Below are positions 6,217 through 25,522 of a stretch of 64,000 bases of DNA, piece after piece; position 1 is the first letter of the stretch; every line of letters starts with the position of its first letter. The translations under genes and the position numbers were made by a program. The notes beneath the pieces are model-generated. The model saw nothing but the letters and a program-made list of their open reading frames with translations, searched no databases and was not told the DNA's origin. Origin of the DNA: Escherichia coli. GTDB taxonomy: Bacteria; Pseudomonadota; Gammaproteobacteria; Enterobacterales; Enterobacteriaceae. The DNA lies in assembly GCF_030013595.1 (NCBI RefSeq), contig NZ_CP122768.1, one strand, 5' to 3'.

Positions 6217-6681
6217 ATGAGAAGAAAACGCGAAGAAATCGCATCGCCAGAAGCTACGCAGCGTCTGCGCGCAGTCTGGGATGCCAAAAAAAGAGAGCTC
6301 AAACTGACTCAGGAGCTTGCTGCTGAGCTAATGGGCTTTGAGACTCAATCCACAGTTAGCCACTATCTCAACGGAAAGGCTCCACTAAACACTGATGCAG
6401 CATTAAAATTCGCTGTATTACTAAGAGTTAAGCCTGAAGAGTTGAGGCCTGATTTAGCTGATCTGATGAATTACGTCCGTTCCTCAGGAACTTATGACGA
6501 AAGTTTCGAAGGAGAAGGTTGGCGGATGGTTAACAAGCAACAAGCTGATTTACTGGATCTTTTTGAAATCCTACCCGAATCAGAAAAAGCAAAACTAATC
6601 GAAAGGCTTAAAGGTCAGAATGAACTCTACAAAGAAGCGTTTGAAAAGATGCTGGCAGCTCAGAAACGCATGAAGAAATAG
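6217..6681 (+). CDS. racR: Rac prophage repressor (CI-like HTH)
   Basis: 154-aa ORF with HTH (TQELAAELMGFETQSTVSHYLNG), divergent from ydaS. Confidence 0.8.
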   Translation: MRRKREEIASPEATQRLRAVWDAKKRELKLTQELAAELMGFETQSTVSHYLNGKAPLNTDAALKFAVLLRVKPEELRPDLADLMNYVRSSGTYDESFEGEGWRMVNKQQADLLDLFEILPESEKAKLIERLKGQNELYKEAFEKMLAAQKRMKK

Positions 6682-6916: not shown

Positions 6917-7051
6917 ATGGTGCATTACGAAGTAGTTCAGTATTTGATGGATTGTTACGGCATCACTTACAGCCAGGCTGTACAGGCTCTACGCAGCAAC
7001 GACTGGGATCTCTGGCAGGCAGAAGCCTCTATCCGCAACAACAAGATGTGA
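6917..7051 (+). CDS. ydaG: Rac prophage small protein YdaG
   Basis: 44-aa ORF MVHYEVVQYLMDCYGITYSQAVQALRSNDWDLWQAEASIRNNKM, near-identical to remembered K-12 YdaG; GGGAGAG Shine-Dalgarno. Confidence 0.7.
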   Translation: MVHYEVVQYLMDCYGITYSQAVQALRSNDWDLWQAEASIRNNKM

Positions 7052-7062
7052 GGGTTTCCAAA

Positions 7063-7215
7063 ATGCAAAAAATCGACCTCGGCAACAACGAATCCCTAGT
7101 GTGTGGCGTGTTCCCCAACCAGGATGGAACGTTCACCGCCATGACTTATACCAAAAGCAAGACATTCAAAACTGAAACGGGCGCACGTCGCTGGCTTGCC
7201 AGAAATACTTGCTGA
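7063..7215 (+). CDS. ydaF: Rac prophage small protein YdaF
   Basis: 50-aa ORF MQKIDLGNNESLVCGVFPNQDGTFTAMTYTKSKTFKTE..., matches remembered YdaF. Confidence 0.7.
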   Translation: MQKIDLGNNESLVCGVFPNQDGTFTAMTYTKSKTFKTETGARRWLARNTC

Positions 7216-7462
7216 TCCATTATTTGGATTAATTCAATATTCTCGCTGTAGGGGTATAGCCGAGGCCACCAAAGCCCGGAGGTGGTGAAATAAAACCGGG
7301 CGCAACACGAAGGCGCATTTCCGATATCCATAAAGAGTCGGTTTTGTCTGTTAAATTTAAATGGTGGGAGTGCTCCTCCGGTTGTAAATAACGACATTGC
7401 TGTGTGTAGTCTTGGCGGCATCAGTTTTTTCTTGAAGTTCGGCTGATGTCCGCCCTTTTTAA

Positions 7463-7630
7463 AGTGAATTTTGTGATGCGGTGAATGCGGCTCAGCGCAC
7501 GCGGAACAGTTAAAAAAGTGATCGGTACTCTGTATTTGTTTTATGGAGTTGGTTTCCCTGTATTCCGGCGTTAATTGTTAACTGGTTAACGTCACCTGGA
7601 GGCACCAGGCACCGCATCACAAAATTCACT
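7463..7630. repeat. 21-bp perfect inverted repeat (AGTGAATTTTGTGATGCGGTG at 7463..7483, reverse complement at 7610..7630) flanking a 126-bp spacer in a non-coding gap
   Basis: Read directly from sequence. Confidence 0.85.
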
Positions 7631-7652
7631 TAGTAACCAAGAAGAGAATTAT

Positions 7653-7925
7653 ATGCAAGAGATAAGTTTTGAAATAACAGCAAAAGATGTACAGGTTAAG
7701 CCCGATTACAATCAAAAATTATGTATTGAAGTCAATGGCGTGAAGTTATCAGACCTGATTGATTCAGTTGAAGATAACGACGCTATTATTGAAATGGTTG
7801 GAGCCGAAGAAATAGCAGAATACTTTTCAACAGAGGGGCGTCTTCATGAGCTTCTGGAAAAATTTTCATATCAGGATATCGCTACATTTCTGGAAATTAA
7901 TGGTTATAAAGTTACCGAGGAATAA
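7653..7925 (+). CDS. hypothetical small strongly acidic protein (prophage early-region gene)
   Basis: 90-aa ORF; about 21 Asp/Glu versus about 8 basic residues by my count; not recognisable as kilR or sieB. Confidence 0.5.
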   Translation: MQEISFEITAKDVQVKPDYNQKLCIEVNGVKLSDLIDSVEDNDAIIEMVGAEEIAEYFSTEGRLHELLEKFSYQDIATFLEINGYKVTEE

Positions 7926-7943: not shown

Positions 7944-8153
7944 ATGGAACGTAATCATCTAACAGCTATCAGTGCCGCACAGAGTAAATTCGCCATCGCT
8001 GTATTTTTACAGGATGAAGAAATGTTTGAGCAGGCCATTATTCAGTTTGCAATTGCGACCGGGAGTAAAATAAATGAACACTTTGTTCGCTCTTGTCATG
8101 ACCGTTTTTCTGACATCAGGCGAAACTCAGGATGTTGTTACCGGAATTTATAA
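7944..8153 (+). CDS. hypothetical small protein (uncertain; overlaps next ORF in another frame)
   Basis: 69-aa ORF with AGGTGG Shine-Dalgarno 6 nt upstream; overlaps 8074..8310 by 80 nt. Confidence 0.3.
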   Translation: MERNHLTAISAAQSKFAIAVFLQDEEMFEQAIIQFAIATGSKINEHFVRSCHDRFSDIRRNSGCCYRNL

Positions 8154-8310
8154 CTCCGAATCTGAATGCAAGGCCGCAGCTATTGAGCAAAAAGTAGCTG
8201 GTGAATGTTTCCCTGTTGAGAAATTTATCCGGCCTGTAGATGAAGAAATTCCCGCAGGCCTCACAGGAGAAAATCATGAAAATAAAATGTGGTTACCACC
8301 TTTGCAATAA
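8074..8310 (+). CDS. hypothetical small protein with hydrophobic N-terminus (kilR-position gene, identity not confirmed)
   Basis: 78-aa ORF with GGGAG Shine-Dalgarno; N-terminal MNTLFALVMTVFLTSG is signal-peptide or TM-like. Confidence 0.4.
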   Translation: MNTLFALVMTVFLTSGETQDVVTGIYNSESECKAAAIEQKVAGECFPVEKFIRPVDEEIPAGLTGENHENKMWLPPLQ

Positions 8311-12411: not shown

Positions 12412-12618
12412 ATGACAAAAACTTTGAGATATGACGATGTTAAACCATGTCCGTTTTGTGGTTGTCCATCAGTAACGGTGAAAGACATTTCAGGATATTA
12501 CCGGGCAAAATGCAACGGATGCGAATCCCGAACTGGCTATGGTGGAAGTGAAAAAGAAGCGCTCGAAAGATGGAATAAACGAACCACTGAAAATATTAAT
12601 GGAGGCGTTCATGTATAA
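12412..12618 (+). CDS. ralR: restriction alleviation protein RalR (Lar)
   Basis: MTKTLRYDDVKPCPFCGCPSVTVK... matches remembered RalR. Confidence 0.85.
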   Translation: MTKTLRYDDVKPCPFCGCPSVTVKDISGYYRAKCNGCESRTGYGGSEKEALERWNKRTTENINGGVHV

Positions 12619-12799
12619 AATTACCGCTACAATTGAAAAGGAAGGTGGCACTCCTACTAACTGGACAAGATATTCAAAATCTAAACTAACGAAATCAGAA
12701 TGCGAAAAAATGCTCTCAGGTAAAAAAGAAGCAGGCGTTTCCAGAGAGCAGAAAGTAAAACTGATAAATTTTAATTGCGAGAAACTTCAGTCCTCGTGA
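12611..12799 (+). CDS. ydaC: Rac prophage small protein YdaC (RcbA)
   Basis: 62-aa ORF MYKITATIEKEGGTPTNW... with GGAGG Shine-Dalgarno; overlaps ralR stop. Confidence 0.7.
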   Translation: MYKITATIEKEGGTPTNWTRYSKSKLTKSECEKMLSGKKEAGVSREQKVKLINFNCEKLQSS

Positions 12800-17100: not shown

Positions 17101-17222
17101 AAAAAAAAGCCGACTCATCAAAGTCGGCGTCGTACGAATCAATTGTGCTATGCAGTAATTCAAAAAAGGAAGTAAGACAATATGGAGCGCAACGCCCATC
17201 GCTTGACGTTGCATTCACCTGC
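17101..17222 (-). ncRNA. fnrS: FnrS small RNA
   Basis: Reverse complement begins GCAGGTGAATGCAACGTCAAGCGATGGGCG and ends in terminator hairpin GCCGACTTTGATGAGTCGGC plus U-run; matches remembered FnrS, located between zntB and dbpA. Confidence 0.8.
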
Positions 17223-19749: not shown

Positions 19750-21074
19750 TGAATCCCCTAATGATTTTGGTAAAAATCATTAAGTTAAGGTGGATACACA
19801 TCTTGTCATATGATCAAATGGTTTCGCGAAAAATCAATAATCAGACAACAAGATGTGCGAACTCGATATTTTACACGACTCTCTTTACCAATTCTGCCCC
19901 GAATTACACTTAAAACGACTCAACAGCTTAACGTTGGCTTGCCACGCATTACTTGACTGTAAAACTCTCACTCTTACCGAACTTGGCCGTAACCTGCCAA
20001 CCAAAGCGAGAACAAAACATAACATCAAACGAATCGACCGATTGTTAGGTAATCGTCACCTCCACAAAGAGCGACTCGCTGTATACCGTTGGCATGCTAG
20101 CTTTATCTGTTCGGGCAATACGATGCCCATTGTACTTGTTGACTGGTCTGATATTCGTGAGCAAAAACGACTTATGGTATTGCGAGCTTCAGTCGCACTA
20201 CACGGTCGTTCTGTTACTCTTTATGAGAAAGCGTTCCCGCTTTCAGAGCAATGTTCAAAGAAAGCTCATGACCAATTTCTAGCCGACCTTGCGAGCATTC
20301 TACCGAGTAACACCACACCGCTCATTGTCAGTGATGCTGGCTTTAAAGTGCCATGGTATAAATCCGTTGAGAAGCTGGGTTGGTACTGGTTAAGTCGAGT
20401 AAGAGGAAAAGTACAATATGCAGACCTAGGAGCGGAAAACTGGAAACCTATCAGCAACTTACATGATATGTCATCTAGTCACTCAAAGACTTTAGGCTAT
20501 AAGAGGCTGACTAAAAGCAATCCAATCTCATGCCAAATTCTATTGTATAAATCTCGCTCTAAAGGCCGAAAAAATCAGCGCTCGACACGGACTCATTGTC
20601 ACCACCCGTCACCTAAAATCTACTCAGCGTCGGCAAAGGAGCCATGGGTTCTAGCAACTAACTTACCTGTTGAAATTCGAACACCCAAACAACTTGTTAA
20701 TATCTATTCGAAGCGAATGCAGATTGAAGAAACCTTCCGAGACTTGAAAAGTCCTGCCTACGGACTAGGCCTACGCCATAGCCGAACGAGCAGCTCAGAG
20801 CGTTTTGATATCATGCTGCTAATCGCCCTGATGCTTCAACTAACATGTTGGCTTGCGGGCGTTCATGCTCAGAAACAAGGTTGGGACAAGCACTTCCAGG
20901 CTAACACAGTCAGAAATCGAAACGTACTCTCAACAGTTCGCTTAGGCATGGAAGTTTTGCGGCATTCTGGCTACACAATAACAAGGGAAGACTTACTCGT
21001 GGCTGCAACCCTACTAGCTCAAAATTTATTCACACATGGTTACGCTTTGGGGAAATTATGAGGGGATCTCTCAG
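19746..21074 (+). mobile_element. IS10 insertion sequence, complete (1329 bp), outside end towards dgcM
   Basis: Begins CTGATGAATCCCCTAATGATTTTGGTAAAAATCATTAAG and ends ...GGGGAAATTATGAGGGGATCTCTCAG; length and ends match remembered IS10. Confidence 0.95.
19853..21061 (+). CDS. IS10 transposase
   Basis: 402-aa ORF MCELDILHDSLYQFCPELHLKRLNSL...HGYALGKL matching remembered IS10 transposase. Confidence 0.95.
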   Translation: MCELDILHDSLYQFCPELHLKRLNSLTLACHALLDCKTLTLTELGRNLPTKARTKHNIKRIDRLLGNRHLHKERLAVYRWHASFICSGNTMPIVLVDWSDIREQKRLMVLRASVALHGRSVTLYEKAFPLSEQCSKKAHDQFLADLASILPSNTTPLIVSDAGFKVPWYKSVEKLGWYWLSRVRGKVQYADLGAENWKPISNLHDMSSSHSKTLGYKRLTKSNPISCQILLYKSRSKGRKNQRSTRTHCHHPSPKIYSASAKEPWVLATNLPVEIRTPKQLVNIYSKRMQIEETFRDLKSPAYGLGLRHSRTSSSERFDIMLLIALMLQLTCWLAGVHAQKQGWDKHFQANTVRNRNVLSTVRLGMEVLRHSGYTITREDLLVAATLLAQNLFTHGYALGKL

Positions 21075-25426: not shown

Positions 25427-25522
25427 ACCGGTCACCAGGACCCCAGGCCGGATTTAAGACGAGGATGCACTGCTGTGTGTACTGTAGAGTCTGGCGGATG
25501 TAGACAGACTCTATTTTTTTAT
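25427..25522 (+). ncRNA. mcaS: McaS (IsrA) small RNA, probable
   Basis: 3' two-thirds matches remembered McaS including the terminator hairpin and U-run; the 5' end is approximate and looks different from my memory of K-12. Confidence 0.6.

What the first reader, a model, noticed from the sequence alone, without database searches (positions are those of the whole stretch)
7216..7652. Non-coding gap with a 21-bp perfect inverted repeat where K-12 Rac carries sieB
Between ydaF and the next convincing gene there are 437 bp without a credible ORF. The gap contains a perfect 21-bp inverted repeat (7463..7483 and 7610..7630) around a 126-bp spacer, plus a GTTAAC-tgG-TTAAC motif. In K-12 Rac this position holds sieB as I recall, which would not fit in this gap. 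The repeat could be a deletion scar, a recombination site, or a long-range RNA structure in the early-left transcript (attenuator or sRNA).
Basis: partly seen in the sequence, partly recalled or inferred. Interest (0 to 1): 0.4.

Follow-up and report, generated by a model that had tools for sequence, protein, structure and literature searches.

The report
RNase III-cut RNA leader after KilS
The "empty" gap holds a small regulatory RNA gene, and the 22-base inverted repeat is the closing stem of a conserved folded RNA domain that RNase III most likely cuts, just ahead of the next prophage gene; it is mostly known biology that annotation misses.

Summary
The repeat is real: perfect 22-nt arms at 7462-7483 and 7610-7631, 126 nt apart. 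The longest repeat in 500 shuffles of the gap was 12 nt.

The gap is not empty. It is the Rac early-left leader and matches the K-12 sieB-kilR spacer at 87.6% identity. K-12 also carries sieB between ydaF and this region; the window has no sieB.

- **7364-7460 (+):** a homologue of the K-12 sRNA KilS, ending in a DicF-type terminator.
- **7462-7631 (+):** a folded RNA domain closed by the repeat (helix P1). It also has hairpins P2, P4 and P5 and a pseudoknot (7507-7513 with 7578-7584).

Covariation supports the fold, and the G·U pattern fits only the + strand. Rfam scores it as a sub-threshold relative of STnc100 (34.6 bits, threshold 47).

In the Qin homologue (the dicF-dicB spacer), two published RNA ends lie opposite each other in P1, within 1 nt of RNase III geometry: the RNase III-dependent 72-nt DicF end and a Term-seq 3' end 25 nt before dicB. 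So the repeat is most likely an RNase III processing helix.

No flipped orientation occurs in 5,426 E. coli genomes, and the repeat lies about 220 nt from the sieB junction, so it is neither an invertible segment nor a deletion scar.

Interest is moderate. The link to STnc100/PasD and the pseudoknot appear undescribed.

The parts
7216..7240 (.). Junction where K-12 Rac carries sieB (plus about 50 nt of its 5' region) on the opposite strand. The window has 25 unique bases here.
   Evidence: Alignment with K-12 Rac: homology resumes at 7241, and the sieB start aligns at about 7236. sieB is absent from the window by tblastn.
7241..7363 (+). Conserved untranslated leader upstream of the sRNA, homologous to the K-12 sieB-kilS spacer. 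It contains an extended -10-like TGtTAAATT at 7349-7357, placed correctly for a start at 7364.
   Evidence: 87.6% identity to K-12 over 7241-7657 and alignment A1. The promoter reading comes from the sequence. PMC8175672 reports that KilS can be transcribed from its own promoter.
7364..7460 (+). KilS-like sRNA, homologue of K-12 b4833. Its 3' part (7401-7455) is a DicF-type terminator hairpin with a U-run. Its body carries an 18-nt block identical to RprA.
   Evidence: K-12 kilS ends map to 7364 and 7460. Rfam DicF 41.1 bits, E=7e-7, threshold 48. Alignment with RprA, KilS and DicF.
7462..7483 (+). 5' arm of helix P1 (left arm of the inverted repeat). The predicted RNase III cut is after about 7474.
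   Evidence: The cut position is transferred from the 72-nt DicF end in Qin.
7487..7502 (+). P2 hairpin (GCGGC...GC.CGC), preceded by the invariant junction GAAU.
   Evidence: Minimum-energy fold. Three P2 pairs switch GC to CG between the window type and canonical STnc100.
7507..7513 (+). 5' strand of the pseudoknot (CAGUUAA).
   Evidence: Found as inverted repeat I6. RNAalifold selects this pairing. 6 of 7 pairs show changes on both sides. At least 12 different complementary sequence pairs occur across the family.
7514..7566 (+). Variable region (P3), differing in length and sequence between copies. It contains a spurious 29-codon ORF (7485-7574).
   Evidence: Alignments A3 and A5. Element lengths range from 150 to 178 nt and do not differ in steps of three.
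7567..7593 (+). Its loop (7578-7584, UUAACUG) is the 3' strand of the pseudoknot.
   Evidence: (3 pairs with compensatory change; invariant G·U pairs).
7595..7609 (+). P5 hairpin CCUGG-AGGCA-CCAGG, preceded by the invariant UCA.
   Evidence: The middle pair is U-A here, G-C in canonical STnc100 and G·U in P7.
7610..7631 (+). 3' arm of helix P1 (right arm of the inverted repeat). The predicted RNase III cut is after about 7621, leaving a leader of about 31 nt.
   Evidence: The position is transferred from the Term-seq 3' end at NC_000913.3 1649584, 25 nt before dicB.
7653..7925 (+). First ORF after the element: 90 aa, function unknown (phrog_7311). A weak Shine-Dalgarno sequence lies at about 7640-7647. 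It occupies the position that kilR or dicB holds in K-12.
7944..8153 (+). Lambda-Kil-like ORF, not annotated in RefSeq. This is the probable cell-division inhibitor of this operon.
   Evidence: Pfam PF06301, 32.1 bits against a cut-off of 27.6; PHROG 'Kil protein' families. It is absent from the RefSeq feature table.

Best explanation
The inverted repeat is the two strands of a 22-bp RNA helix (P1). The helix forms in the + strand read-through transcript of the Rac early-left operon.

Transcripts that stop at the DicF-type terminator give the KilS-like sRNA (7364-7460). Transcripts that read through continue into a structured domain of about 170 nt (7462-7631). That domain has the P1 closing helix, hairpins P2, P4 and P5, a variable insert, and a pseudoknot between 7507-7513 and the P4 loop. 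It ends about 21 nt before the start codon of the next gene.

RNase III cuts both strands of P1, at about 7474/7475 and 7621/7622. This has three consequences:
1. The upstream sRNA gets an alternative, longer 3' end.
2. A core RNA of about 147 nt is excised.
3. The downstream mRNA (90-aa ORF, Kil-like gene, ydaE, racC, recE) gets a new 5' end with a short unstructured leader.

**Shown here:** the helix, the fold, its strand, its conservation and its position.

**Shown by others in the Qin homologue:** an RNase III-dependent 72-nt DicF, and a processed 3' end 25 nt before dicB.

**Inferred:** that the same cuts occur in this prophage, and that they alter the stability or translation of the downstream message. 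The direction of that effect is unknown.
For: **The repeat is real.** Perfect 22-nt arms against a maximum of 12 nt in shuffles.

**The + strand folds well.** -71.5 kcal/mol, z = -7.05, closed by the 22-bp stem.

**Covariation in 33 window-type copies.**
- 97.1% of cells are paired.
- 12 pairs show changes on both sides, against 2.4 in shuffles (0 of 500 reach it) and 1-4 in slid controls.
- 8 of those 12 pairs are in P1.

**Strand.** On the + strand there are 147 G·U cells and 7 A·C cells. The minus strand is only 87% paired.

**Shared fold with canonical STnc100.** P1, P2 and P5 covary between the two types, and a pseudoknot is supported by 6 of 7 covarying pairs and at least 12 distinct sequence pairs.

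**Homology.** The element matches the K-12 kilS-kilR and dicF-dicB spacers.

**Cleavage in Qin.**
- The 72-nt DicF is made by RNase III from full-length dicBF RNA (PMC5069750, PMC9438474). Annotated DicF starts at 1649382, so this end falls at 1649453, inside the P1 5' arm (1649441-1649462).
- Term-seq finds a 3' end at 1649584 with about 1,035 reads. It is not Rho-dependent and has an intrinsic-terminator score of 1.2 (PMC7815308). It lies inside the P1 3' arm (1649573-1649594).
- A 2-nt-overhang cut opposite 1649453 predicts 1649583, which is 1 nt away.
- Coverage at 1649470 is 26 reads in an rnc mutant and 0 in wild type (PMC5371410). This is weak support.

**Portable leader.** The element always sits 26-46 nt before a start codon of varied genes: dicB, kilR, terB and others.
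Against: - No experiment exists for this strain or for Rac.
- The 72-nt end is placed by arithmetic from reported lengths. I could not read Faubladier 1990.
- The 2023 preprint on dicBF processing mentions only an RNase III site upstream of dicF.
- The rnc coverage evidence rests on very few reads, in a noisy list.
- In P7 and a Klebsiella phage, P1 is only 9-10 bp, too short for RNase III. Cleavage therefore cannot be the ancestral or only role of the domain.
- Conserved unpaired bases and the pseudoknot point to a function that processing alone does not explain.
- The sequence sample is mostly E. coli prophages and was partly collected with a pattern that fixes most of P5.
Confidence: 0.7

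Rival explanations
1. The domain is mainly a sensor or regulatory leader, like a riboswitch or a protein-binding element, that sets translation of the gene just downstream. The 22-bp helix is then only its closing stem, and cleavage is incidental.
For: - The fold is complex and has a covarying pseudoknot.
- Unpaired bases are invariant across both types: GAAU, UCA and the AGGCA loop.
- The distance to start codons is short and fixed, and the downstream genes are mostly toxic (dicB, kilR).
- The sequences UCACC before P5 and GCACC after it could each pair with GGUG, which would allow a switch.
Against: - No ligand or protein partner is known.
- The ribosome-binding site is not sequestered in the predicted fold.
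- Canonical relatives are free-standing Hfq-bound sRNAs, not leaders.
- This reading is compatible with RNase III cutting rather than exclusive of it.
Confidence: 0.2
2. It is a free-standing trans-acting sRNA gene of the STnc100/PasD kind, with its own promoter and end, that happens to lie in this gap.
For: - Rfam STnc100 matches at 34.6 bits here and 34-44 bits in homologues.
- The helices are shared with the canonical type.
- Canonical members are abundant Hfq-bound sRNAs.
- A defined 3' end exists in Qin.
Against: - The score is below Rfam's threshold of 47.
- No terminator follows the 3' arm; a start codon follows instead, at 21 nt.
- The 5' arm starts 2 nt after the KilS terminator, leaving no room for a promoter.
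- The Qin 3' end scores as neither intrinsic nor Rho-dependent.
Confidence: 0.07
3. It is a DNA-level element: an invertible segment, a recombination or deletion scar left by loss of sieB, or a small transposable repeat with terminal inverted repeats.
For: - The arms are perfect and flank a short segment.
- sieB is missing relative to K-12.
- The element is multi-copy in E. coli genomes, with a median of 2-3 places.
- Different genes flank it on both sides, which suggests it serves as a homology patch for module exchange.
Against: - A construct with the spacer flipped finds no match covering 80% or more in 5,426 genomes.
- The sieB junction is 220 nt away, and K-12 has both sieB and the element.
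- The arms change by compensatory and G·U substitutions, which suits RNA and not a protein-recognised DNA end.
- Internal hairpins and a pseudoknot covary.
- No target-site duplication flanks the arms.
- All copies sit in the same kind of phage context.
Confidence: 0.03
4. The region encodes a small protein: the 'DicB' pseudogene fragment called by RefSeq at 7562-7627, the 29-codon ORF at 7485-7574, or the 91-codon minus-strand ORF.
For: RefSeq marks 7562-7627 as an incomplete DicB. The ORFs exist.
Against: - The fragment lies inside P4/P5/P1 of the RNA and is not part of K-12 DicB, whose start is downstream of the element.
- Substitutions follow base pairing, and length changes are not in threes.
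- The 91-aa ORF has no Pfam match.
Confidence: 0.02

Closest known systems
dicF-dicB spacer of the Qin prophage dicBF operon (E. coli K-12), source of the RNase III-dependent 72-nt DicF
   Same: It is a direct sequence homologue. It has the same order of terminator, long helix, structured core and start codon, and almost identical arms. Published RNA ends fall opposite each other in the helix.
   Different: - The upstream sRNA body is DicF there and KilS/RprA-like here.
- The downstream gene is dicB there and an unknown 90-aa ORF here.
- The Qin helix has three G·U pairs; the window's helix is perfect.
- I found no paper that draws this helix or names the core.
kilS-kilR region of K-12 Rac (sRNA KilS, b4833; Bar et al. 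2021, PMC8175672)
   Same: It is the orthologous locus: 87.6% identity over 7241-7657, with the same sRNA, the same terminator and the same element.
   Different: - K-12 has sieB inserted between ydaF and this region.
- K-12 has kilR as the next gene.
- The K-12 right arm has one bulge and two G·U pairs, so at DNA level the repeat is imperfect there.
Rfam RF02076 STnc100, with PasD (EPEC) and EcOnc27 (O157), prophage sRNAs of the late region
   Same: It shares the closing helix ending GGUG/CACC, the GAAU junction, P2, P4, the P5 hairpin with its AGGCA loop, and the pseudoknot.
   Different: - Canonical members have an 8-9 bp closing helix and their own terminator.
- They lie near stx, Q, esterase and lysis genes.
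- They are free-standing Hfq-bound sRNAs.
- The window type scores below the family threshold, has no terminator, is embedded in an mRNA leader, and has a helix extended to 22 bp.
RNase III sites in phage lambda leftward transcripts (N leader, cIII, sib)
   Same: This is a long duplex in a PL-type transcript, close to a start codon, cut by host RNase III. The comparison with lambda rests on my own background knowledge.
   Different: There is no sequence similarity. The lambda sites are simple hairpins, not the closing stem of a pseudoknotted multi-helix domain.
Correia elements of Neisseria (repeats with inverted ends, transcribed and cut by RNase III)
   Same: Inverted ends of about 20-26 nt pair in mRNA and are RNase III substrates. 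This comparison rests on my own background knowledge.
   Different: Correia elements are mobile DNA repeats with conserved ends and target duplications. Here the arms covary, the interior is a conserved RNA fold, and the copies stay in one phage context.

Membership tests
Rfam RF02076 STnc100 | Score at or above the curated gathering threshold (47 bits) | tested here: not met
   34.6 bits at 7457-7656 (E=3.6e-5). Homologues score 34.4-43.8 bits. Nothing is reported at the gathering threshold over the whole window.
Rfam RF02076 STnc100 | Shared secondary structure: closing helix, 5' hairpin, penultimate hairpin, and 5-bp hairpin with AGGCA loop | tested here: met
   The model's closing helix aligns to the repeat. 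P1, P2 and P5 covary between the types: 95.5% paired against 77% in shuffles, covariation score 0.482 against 0.179.
Rfam RF02076 STnc100 | Free-standing sRNA with its own Rho-independent terminator | tested here: not met
   No terminator-like site lies after 7631. A start codon lies at 7653. Canonical copies carry GCCCCUCUCCGGAGGGGCUUU after the helix.
Rfam RF02076 STnc100 | Late-region context (near stx, Q, esterase or lysis genes) | tested here: not met
   The window copy is in the early-left operon, between ydaF and recE. The canonical context comes from the literature.
KilS sRNA (b4833) / DicF family RF00039, for 7364-7460 | Orthology to K-12 kilS: sequence, ends and synteny | tested here: met
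   The K-12 kilS ends map to 7364 and 7460. The sequence is near-identical and sits in the same place relative to ydaF and the element.
KilS sRNA (b4833) / DicF family RF00039, for 7364-7460 | DicF gathering threshold (48 bits) and DicF 5' body | tested here: not met
   41.1 bits. Only the terminator half resembles DicF; the body matches RprA over 18 nt instead.
RNase III processing site | About two turns (20 bp or more) of uninterrupted double-stranded RNA | tested here: met
   22 consecutive Watson-Crick pairs. The helix is kept in 94.9% of cells across 33 copies.
RNase III processing site | Staggered cuts on both strands that depend on RNase III | not testable with these tools
   Only the Qin homologue has data: the 72-nt DicF end and the Term-seq end at 1649584. 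These lie within 1 nt of a 2-nt-overhang geometry. There are no data for this strain.
Invertible DNA segment (inverton) | Both orientations of the segment occur among genomes | tested here: not met
   The flipped-spacer query found 0 places covering 80% or more in 5,426 genomes, and the native orientation in 4,623.
Intrinsic terminator / attenuator | GC-rich hairpin followed directly by a U-run | tested here: not met
   The scan finds none at 7462-7652. The 3' arm is followed by AGUAACCAAG. The true terminator of the gap is the KilS hairpin at about 7414-7460.
Processive antiterminator RNA (HK022 put) | Sequence or structure similarity to put sites | tested here: inconclusive
   No STnc100-like match occurs in the HK022 immunity region. 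I know of no put model in Rfam, so only homology to this element was tested, not function.

The most novel reading that the evidence does not exclude
The core between the arms is a member of a widespread phage RNA class with a defined three-dimensional fold: a five-way junction plus a covarying pseudoknot, shared with STnc100, PasD and EcOnc27. Its conserved unpaired bases would bind a protein or small ligand.

In the early-left version, RNase III would release it from the mRNA as a stable RNA of about 147 nt. That RNA would either act in trans or gate expression of cell-division toxins (DicB, KilR, Kil).

One RNA fold would then link two separate intergenic features that a recent study found predictive of severe O157 disease: the region downstream of stx2 and the region upstream of kilR.
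Probability: 0.25. Interest if true: 0.65.

Novelty: new variant of a known kind. Interest (0 to 1): 0.4.

Why it matters
**Annotation.** A region present in about 85% of complete E. coli genomes, usually in several copies, is left blank or mislabelled as a DicB pseudogene. It falls just under the Rfam threshold for STnc100.

**Mechanism.** The helix gives a concrete structural basis for an RNase III product of the dicBF operon reported in 1990. It also explains an unexplained Term-seq 3' end before dicB. It predicts the same processing ahead of kilR and other prophage toxin genes, whose expression affects cell division, phage resistance and recovery from oxidative stress.

**RNA biology.** The covarying pseudoknot shows that STnc100, PasD, EcOnc27 and these leaders share a real tertiary fold. 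That is unusual for base-pairing sRNAs and can be tested directly.

None of this changes the basic picture of the Rac prophage.

Tried and rejected
1. **Invertible segment.** A flipped-spacer query against 5,426 genomes gave no full-length match. Rejected.
2. **Scar of sieB loss.** The junction is 220 nt away, and K-12 has both features. Rejected.
3. **The Rho-dependent terminator that silences kilR.** That terminator (trac) lies inside racR (PMC4150792), not here.
4. **The known RNase III site that makes the 190-nt DicF.** It lies upstream of dicF, so it is a different site.
5. **Relation to HK022 put antiterminator RNAs.** No similarity was found in the HK022 immunity region. Only homology was tested.
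6. **Protein-coding readings.** There are no family matches for the gap ORFs, and the variation pattern is that of RNA.
7. **Global RNase III maps.**
   - The supplements of PMC6212723 are not held.
   - PMC5371410 lists low-count peaks at 1649470 and 1418510. I use these only as weak support.
8. **Faubladier and Bouché 1994** (PMC205167) and the 1990 paper could not be read.
9. **Own covariance model.** I did not build one. The Rfam hits, the MAFFT alignments and a scripted pseudoknot test were enough for the question asked.

Full report
**1. The observation**

The window around the finding reads, on the + strand:
- a racR-like repressor gene (6217-6681)
- ydaG (6917-7051)
- ydaF (7063-7215)
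- a 437-bp gap
- a 90-aa ORF (7653-7925)
- small genes, then recE from 8890

The window is 100% identical to E. coli ETEC1732 (NZ_CP122823.1), whose RefSeq annotation agrees.

The inverted repeat is real and slightly longer than reported. The arms are 7462-7483 and 7610-7631, 22 nt, perfectly complementary, with 126 nt between them. In 500 shuffles of the gap, the longest perfect inverted repeat was 6-12 nt.

The GTTAAC-TGG-TTAAC motif is at 7577-7590. No credible protein gene lies in the gap:
- The 91-codon minus-strand ORF has no family match.
- The 'DicB' pseudogene fragment that RefSeq places at 7562-7627 lies inside the RNA structure described below.

**2. What the gap corresponds to in K-12**

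In K-12 Rac the order is ydaF, sieB (opposite strand), a spacer of about 440 bp, then kilR. That spacer is homologous to window 7241-7657 at 87.6% identity.

K-12 has sieB immediately after ydaF, and the window lacks it. tblastn finds neither sieB nor a K-12-type kilR anywhere in the 64 kb.

The repeat has nothing to do with that difference, for three reasons:
- The sieB junction is at 7216-7240, about 220 nt away.
- K-12 carries the same repeat-bounded region as well as sieB.
- The sieB-less arrangement is common: 342 genomes match at least 80% of 7150-7720.

In the current K-12 annotation, the spacer carries an sRNA gene, kilS (b4833), found by RIL-seq and Northern blot (PMC8175672). Its ends map to window 7364 and 7460.

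**3. The sRNA in the gap**

Window 7401-7455 matches the Rfam DicF model at 41.1 bits (E = 7e-7, threshold 48). The match comes from the terminator hairpin and U-run. The body of the RNA is not DicF-like. It shares an 18-nt block, ATTGCTGTGTGTAGTCTT, with the core-genome sRNA RprA.

An extended -10-like sequence, TGtTAAATT, lies at 7349-7357. That is the right distance for a start at 7364, and it is identical in K-12.

The first half of the 'empty' gap is therefore a KilS-type sRNA gene.

**4. The repeat closes a structured RNA domain on the + strand**

The 5' arm begins 2 nt after the KilS 3' end. The + strand RNA 7457-7640 folds to -71.5 kcal/mol (z = -7.05). The fold is a multi-branch structure closed by the 22-bp helix. 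The minus strand folds less well.

Rfam aligns 7457-7656 to STnc100 (RF02076) at 34.6 bits, and the family's closing helix falls on the repeat. The K-12 Rac, Qin, Rac-SA53, P7 and Klebsiella phage homologues score 34-44 bits. All are below the threshold of 47, so standard annotation misses them.

**5. The family has two types**

A scan of viral contigs for the P5 motif, plus BLAST against phages, gave two types.

- **Canonical type.** This is STnc100, related to PasD and EcOnc27 in the literature. It has an 8-9 bp closing helix and its own terminator, and it lies in late regions.
- **Window type.** In 31 of 33 distinct copies it directly follows a DicF/KilS-type terminator. It ends 26-46 nt before the start codon of varied genes: DicB variants, KilR, a 152-aa ORF, a YdaE-like protein, TerB in P7, and the 90-aa ORF here.

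**6. Covariation**

On 33 distinct window-type copies:
- 97.1% of cells are paired.
- 12 pairs show changes on both sides, against 2.4 in shuffles (0 of 500 reach it) and 1-4 when partners are slid.
- 8 of those 12 pairs are in the repeat helix.

Examples include C-G to U-A, U-A to C-G and A-U to G-C. In P7 and the Klebsiella phage, different inner pairs keep a 9-10 bp helix.

One-sided changes are almost all G·U on the + strand: 147 G·U cells against 7 A·C. On the minus strand only 87% of cells pair. The structure is therefore RNA, on the strand of the operon.

A caution applies. Most copies are related E. coli prophage sequences, and the collection pattern fixed most of P5, so counts of cells overstate the number of independent events.

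**7. A pseudoknot**

When both types are aligned together, RNAalifold pairs the segment after P2 with the loop of P4. In the window this is CAGUUAA (7507-7513) with UUAACUG (7578-7584). The repeat finder had already listed this pair as I6.

- Six of the seven pairs change on both sides across the family.
- A scripted test found at least 12 different complementary sequence pairs, for example CCAGCCA/UGGCUGG, AUCAGCA/UGCUGAU and CCAGUC/GACUGG.
- 87.5% of 48 distinct sequences have at least 6 Watson-Crick pairs, against 7.6% with shuffled loops.

P1, P2 and P5 also covary between the two types, so the window element is a structural relative of STnc100.

I found no paper that links the dicF-dicB or kilS-kilR spacer to STnc100, or that describes the pseudoknot.

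**8. What the helix does**

The evidence comes from published data for Qin.

[quoted passage not shown] This is besides the 53-nt terminated form (PMC5069750 and PMC9438474, citing Faubladier 1990). Annotated DicF is 1649382-1649434, so the 72-nt end is at 1649453. Even if the 53-nt form includes the U-run, the end is at most about 1649458. Both positions lie inside the 5' arm of the Qin helix (1649441-1649462).
- **Cut in the 3' arm.** Term-seq in K-12 found a 3' end at 1649584, 25 nt before dicB, in two growth conditions (about 1,035 and 753 reads). Its Rho score is 0.95 ('No'), and its intrinsic-terminator score is 1.2, below the cut-off of 3 (PMC7815308). That position lies inside the 3' arm (1649573-1649594).
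- **Geometry.** A cut after 1649453 with a 2-nt 3' overhang predicts 1649583 on the other strand. The observed end is 1 nt away.
- **Dataset check.** The same Term-seq table captures the classic RNase III sites in the pnp and rnc leaders, with similarly low terminator scores.
- **Weak support.** An rnc-mutant coverage study lists 1649470 (26 reads against 0) and 1418510 (41 against 0), but at very low counts.

I conclude that the helix forms in vivo in Qin and is cut across both strands. Placing these two published ends opposite each other in one helix is my own synthesis.

**9. Transfer to the window**

The arms here are perfect and align base for base with Qin. The predicted events are:
- cuts after about 7474 and about 7621
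- a longer KilS-like species
- an excised core of about 147 nt
- a downstream mRNA starting at about 7622, with a 31-nt A/U-rich leader before the ATG at 7653

Whether cutting raises or lowers expression cannot be told from sequence. The intact helix ends 14-21 nt from start codons in different copies, at the edge of the ribosome footprint. Cleavage also creates a 5'-monophosphate end.

P1 is only 9-10 bp in P7 and the Klebsiella phage, and 8-9 bp in canonical STnc100. The 22-bp extension, and with it RNase III cutting, therefore looks like a specialisation of the DicF-linked lineage. The function of the conserved core remains open.

**10. Rivals**

- **Invertible segment.** A flipped-spacer construct finds no full-length match in 5,426 genomes.
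- **Mobile repeat or recombination site.** The arms covary, the interior is a conserved RNA fold, there is no target duplication, and all copies sit in one phage context. The element may still act passively as a homology patch for module exchange, given the varied flanks.
- **Attenuator.** No U-run follows the helix.
- **The Rho-dependent terminator that silences kilR.** It lies within racR.
- **put-like antiterminator.** There is no homology in HK022.
- **Free-standing sRNA.** There is no room for a promoter and no terminator.
- **Sensor-type leader.** This remains possible and is compatible with the main explanation.

**11. Verdict**

The sieB-related and DNA-level options are wrong, and the sRNA in the gap was missed.

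The feature is a variant of known things: KilS, the DicF terminator, RNase III processing of dicBF, and the STnc100 family. It has two apparently undescribed aspects, namely the family link and the pseudoknot.

Interest is moderate, at 0.4.

Noticed in passing
window 7944-8153 (+): This ORF has a lambda Kil domain (PF06301, 32.1 bits against a cut-off of 27.6; PHROG 'Kil protein for bacterial septation inhibition'). It is not in the RefSeq feature table of this genome, and it overlaps the start of the annotated DUF1482 gene (8074-8310). It is probably the operon's real division inhibitor, since K-12-type kilR is absent.
   Followed up: partly
window 7397-7414 (within the KilS-like sRNA 7364-7460): The sRNA body shares an 18-nt identical block (ATTGCTGTGTGTAGTCTT, plus similar flanks) with the core-genome sRNA RprA, just upstream of the terminator in both. 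K-12 KilS has the same block with one change. A prophage sRNA may copy part of RprA's pairing region. The KilS paper I read does not mention this.
   Followed up: partly
window 7562-7627 (+): RefSeq annotates 'cell division inhibition protein DicB, incomplete' here. The stretch lies within hairpins P4 and P5 and the 3' arm of the RNA element, upstream of where real dicB genes start. It is probably a protein-homology artefact caused by over-long DicB entries that include the conserved leader.
   Followed up: partly
window 7241-7363; K-12 NC_000913.3 about 1418503-1418620: The stretch upstream of the KilS-like sRNA is also conserved with K-12 and partly with Qin. An rnc-mutant coverage study lists a peak at 1418510, 8 nt upstream of the KilS 5' end. 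In Qin, an RNase III cut 137 nt upstream of DicF makes a 190-nt species. A second processing helix may lie here.
   Followed up: no
loci L012, L084, L031 and others (canonical STnc100 copies from viral contigs): In canonical copies, hairpin P2 (CCCCCUGUGCGGAGGGGC) is nearly the same sequence as the element's own terminator (GCCCCUCUCCGGAGGGGC) about 25 nt after the closing helix. The two could exchange strands, which would be a possible terminator/antiterminator arrangement.
   Followed up: no
L080 10847-11146; L063 4996-7898: Canonical-type elements occur in tandem: two copies 176 nt apart in L080 and three copies within 2.9 kb in L063. The L080 copies carry divergent closing helices (GUUGUAGUG/CACUACAAC).
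   Followed up: no
L125 (phage P7) 2501-2616: A window-type element sits in the C1-controlled ban operon of P7, after two tRNA genes and about 38 nt before terB. Phage D6 has a similar hit. The element is therefore not restricted to lambdoid early-left operons or to DicF-type terminators.
   Followed up: partly
window 12617-12795 (-), 17105-17222 (-), 19791-19860 (-), 25427-25522 (+): Rfam finds RalA (218 bits), FnrS, an IS10 RNA-OUT and McaS at gathering threshold. The window is therefore the Rac prophage at its usual chromosomal site, in reverse orientation to K-12, with an IS10 copy nearby.
   Followed up: no
literature: PMC12711010: A machine-learning study of O157:H7 outcome found two intergenic predictors of severe disease: variants in STnc100 downstream of stx2, and variants at -25 to -8 upstream of kilR. 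The second region abuts the 3' arm of the element described here. The study did not connect the two.
   Followed up: no
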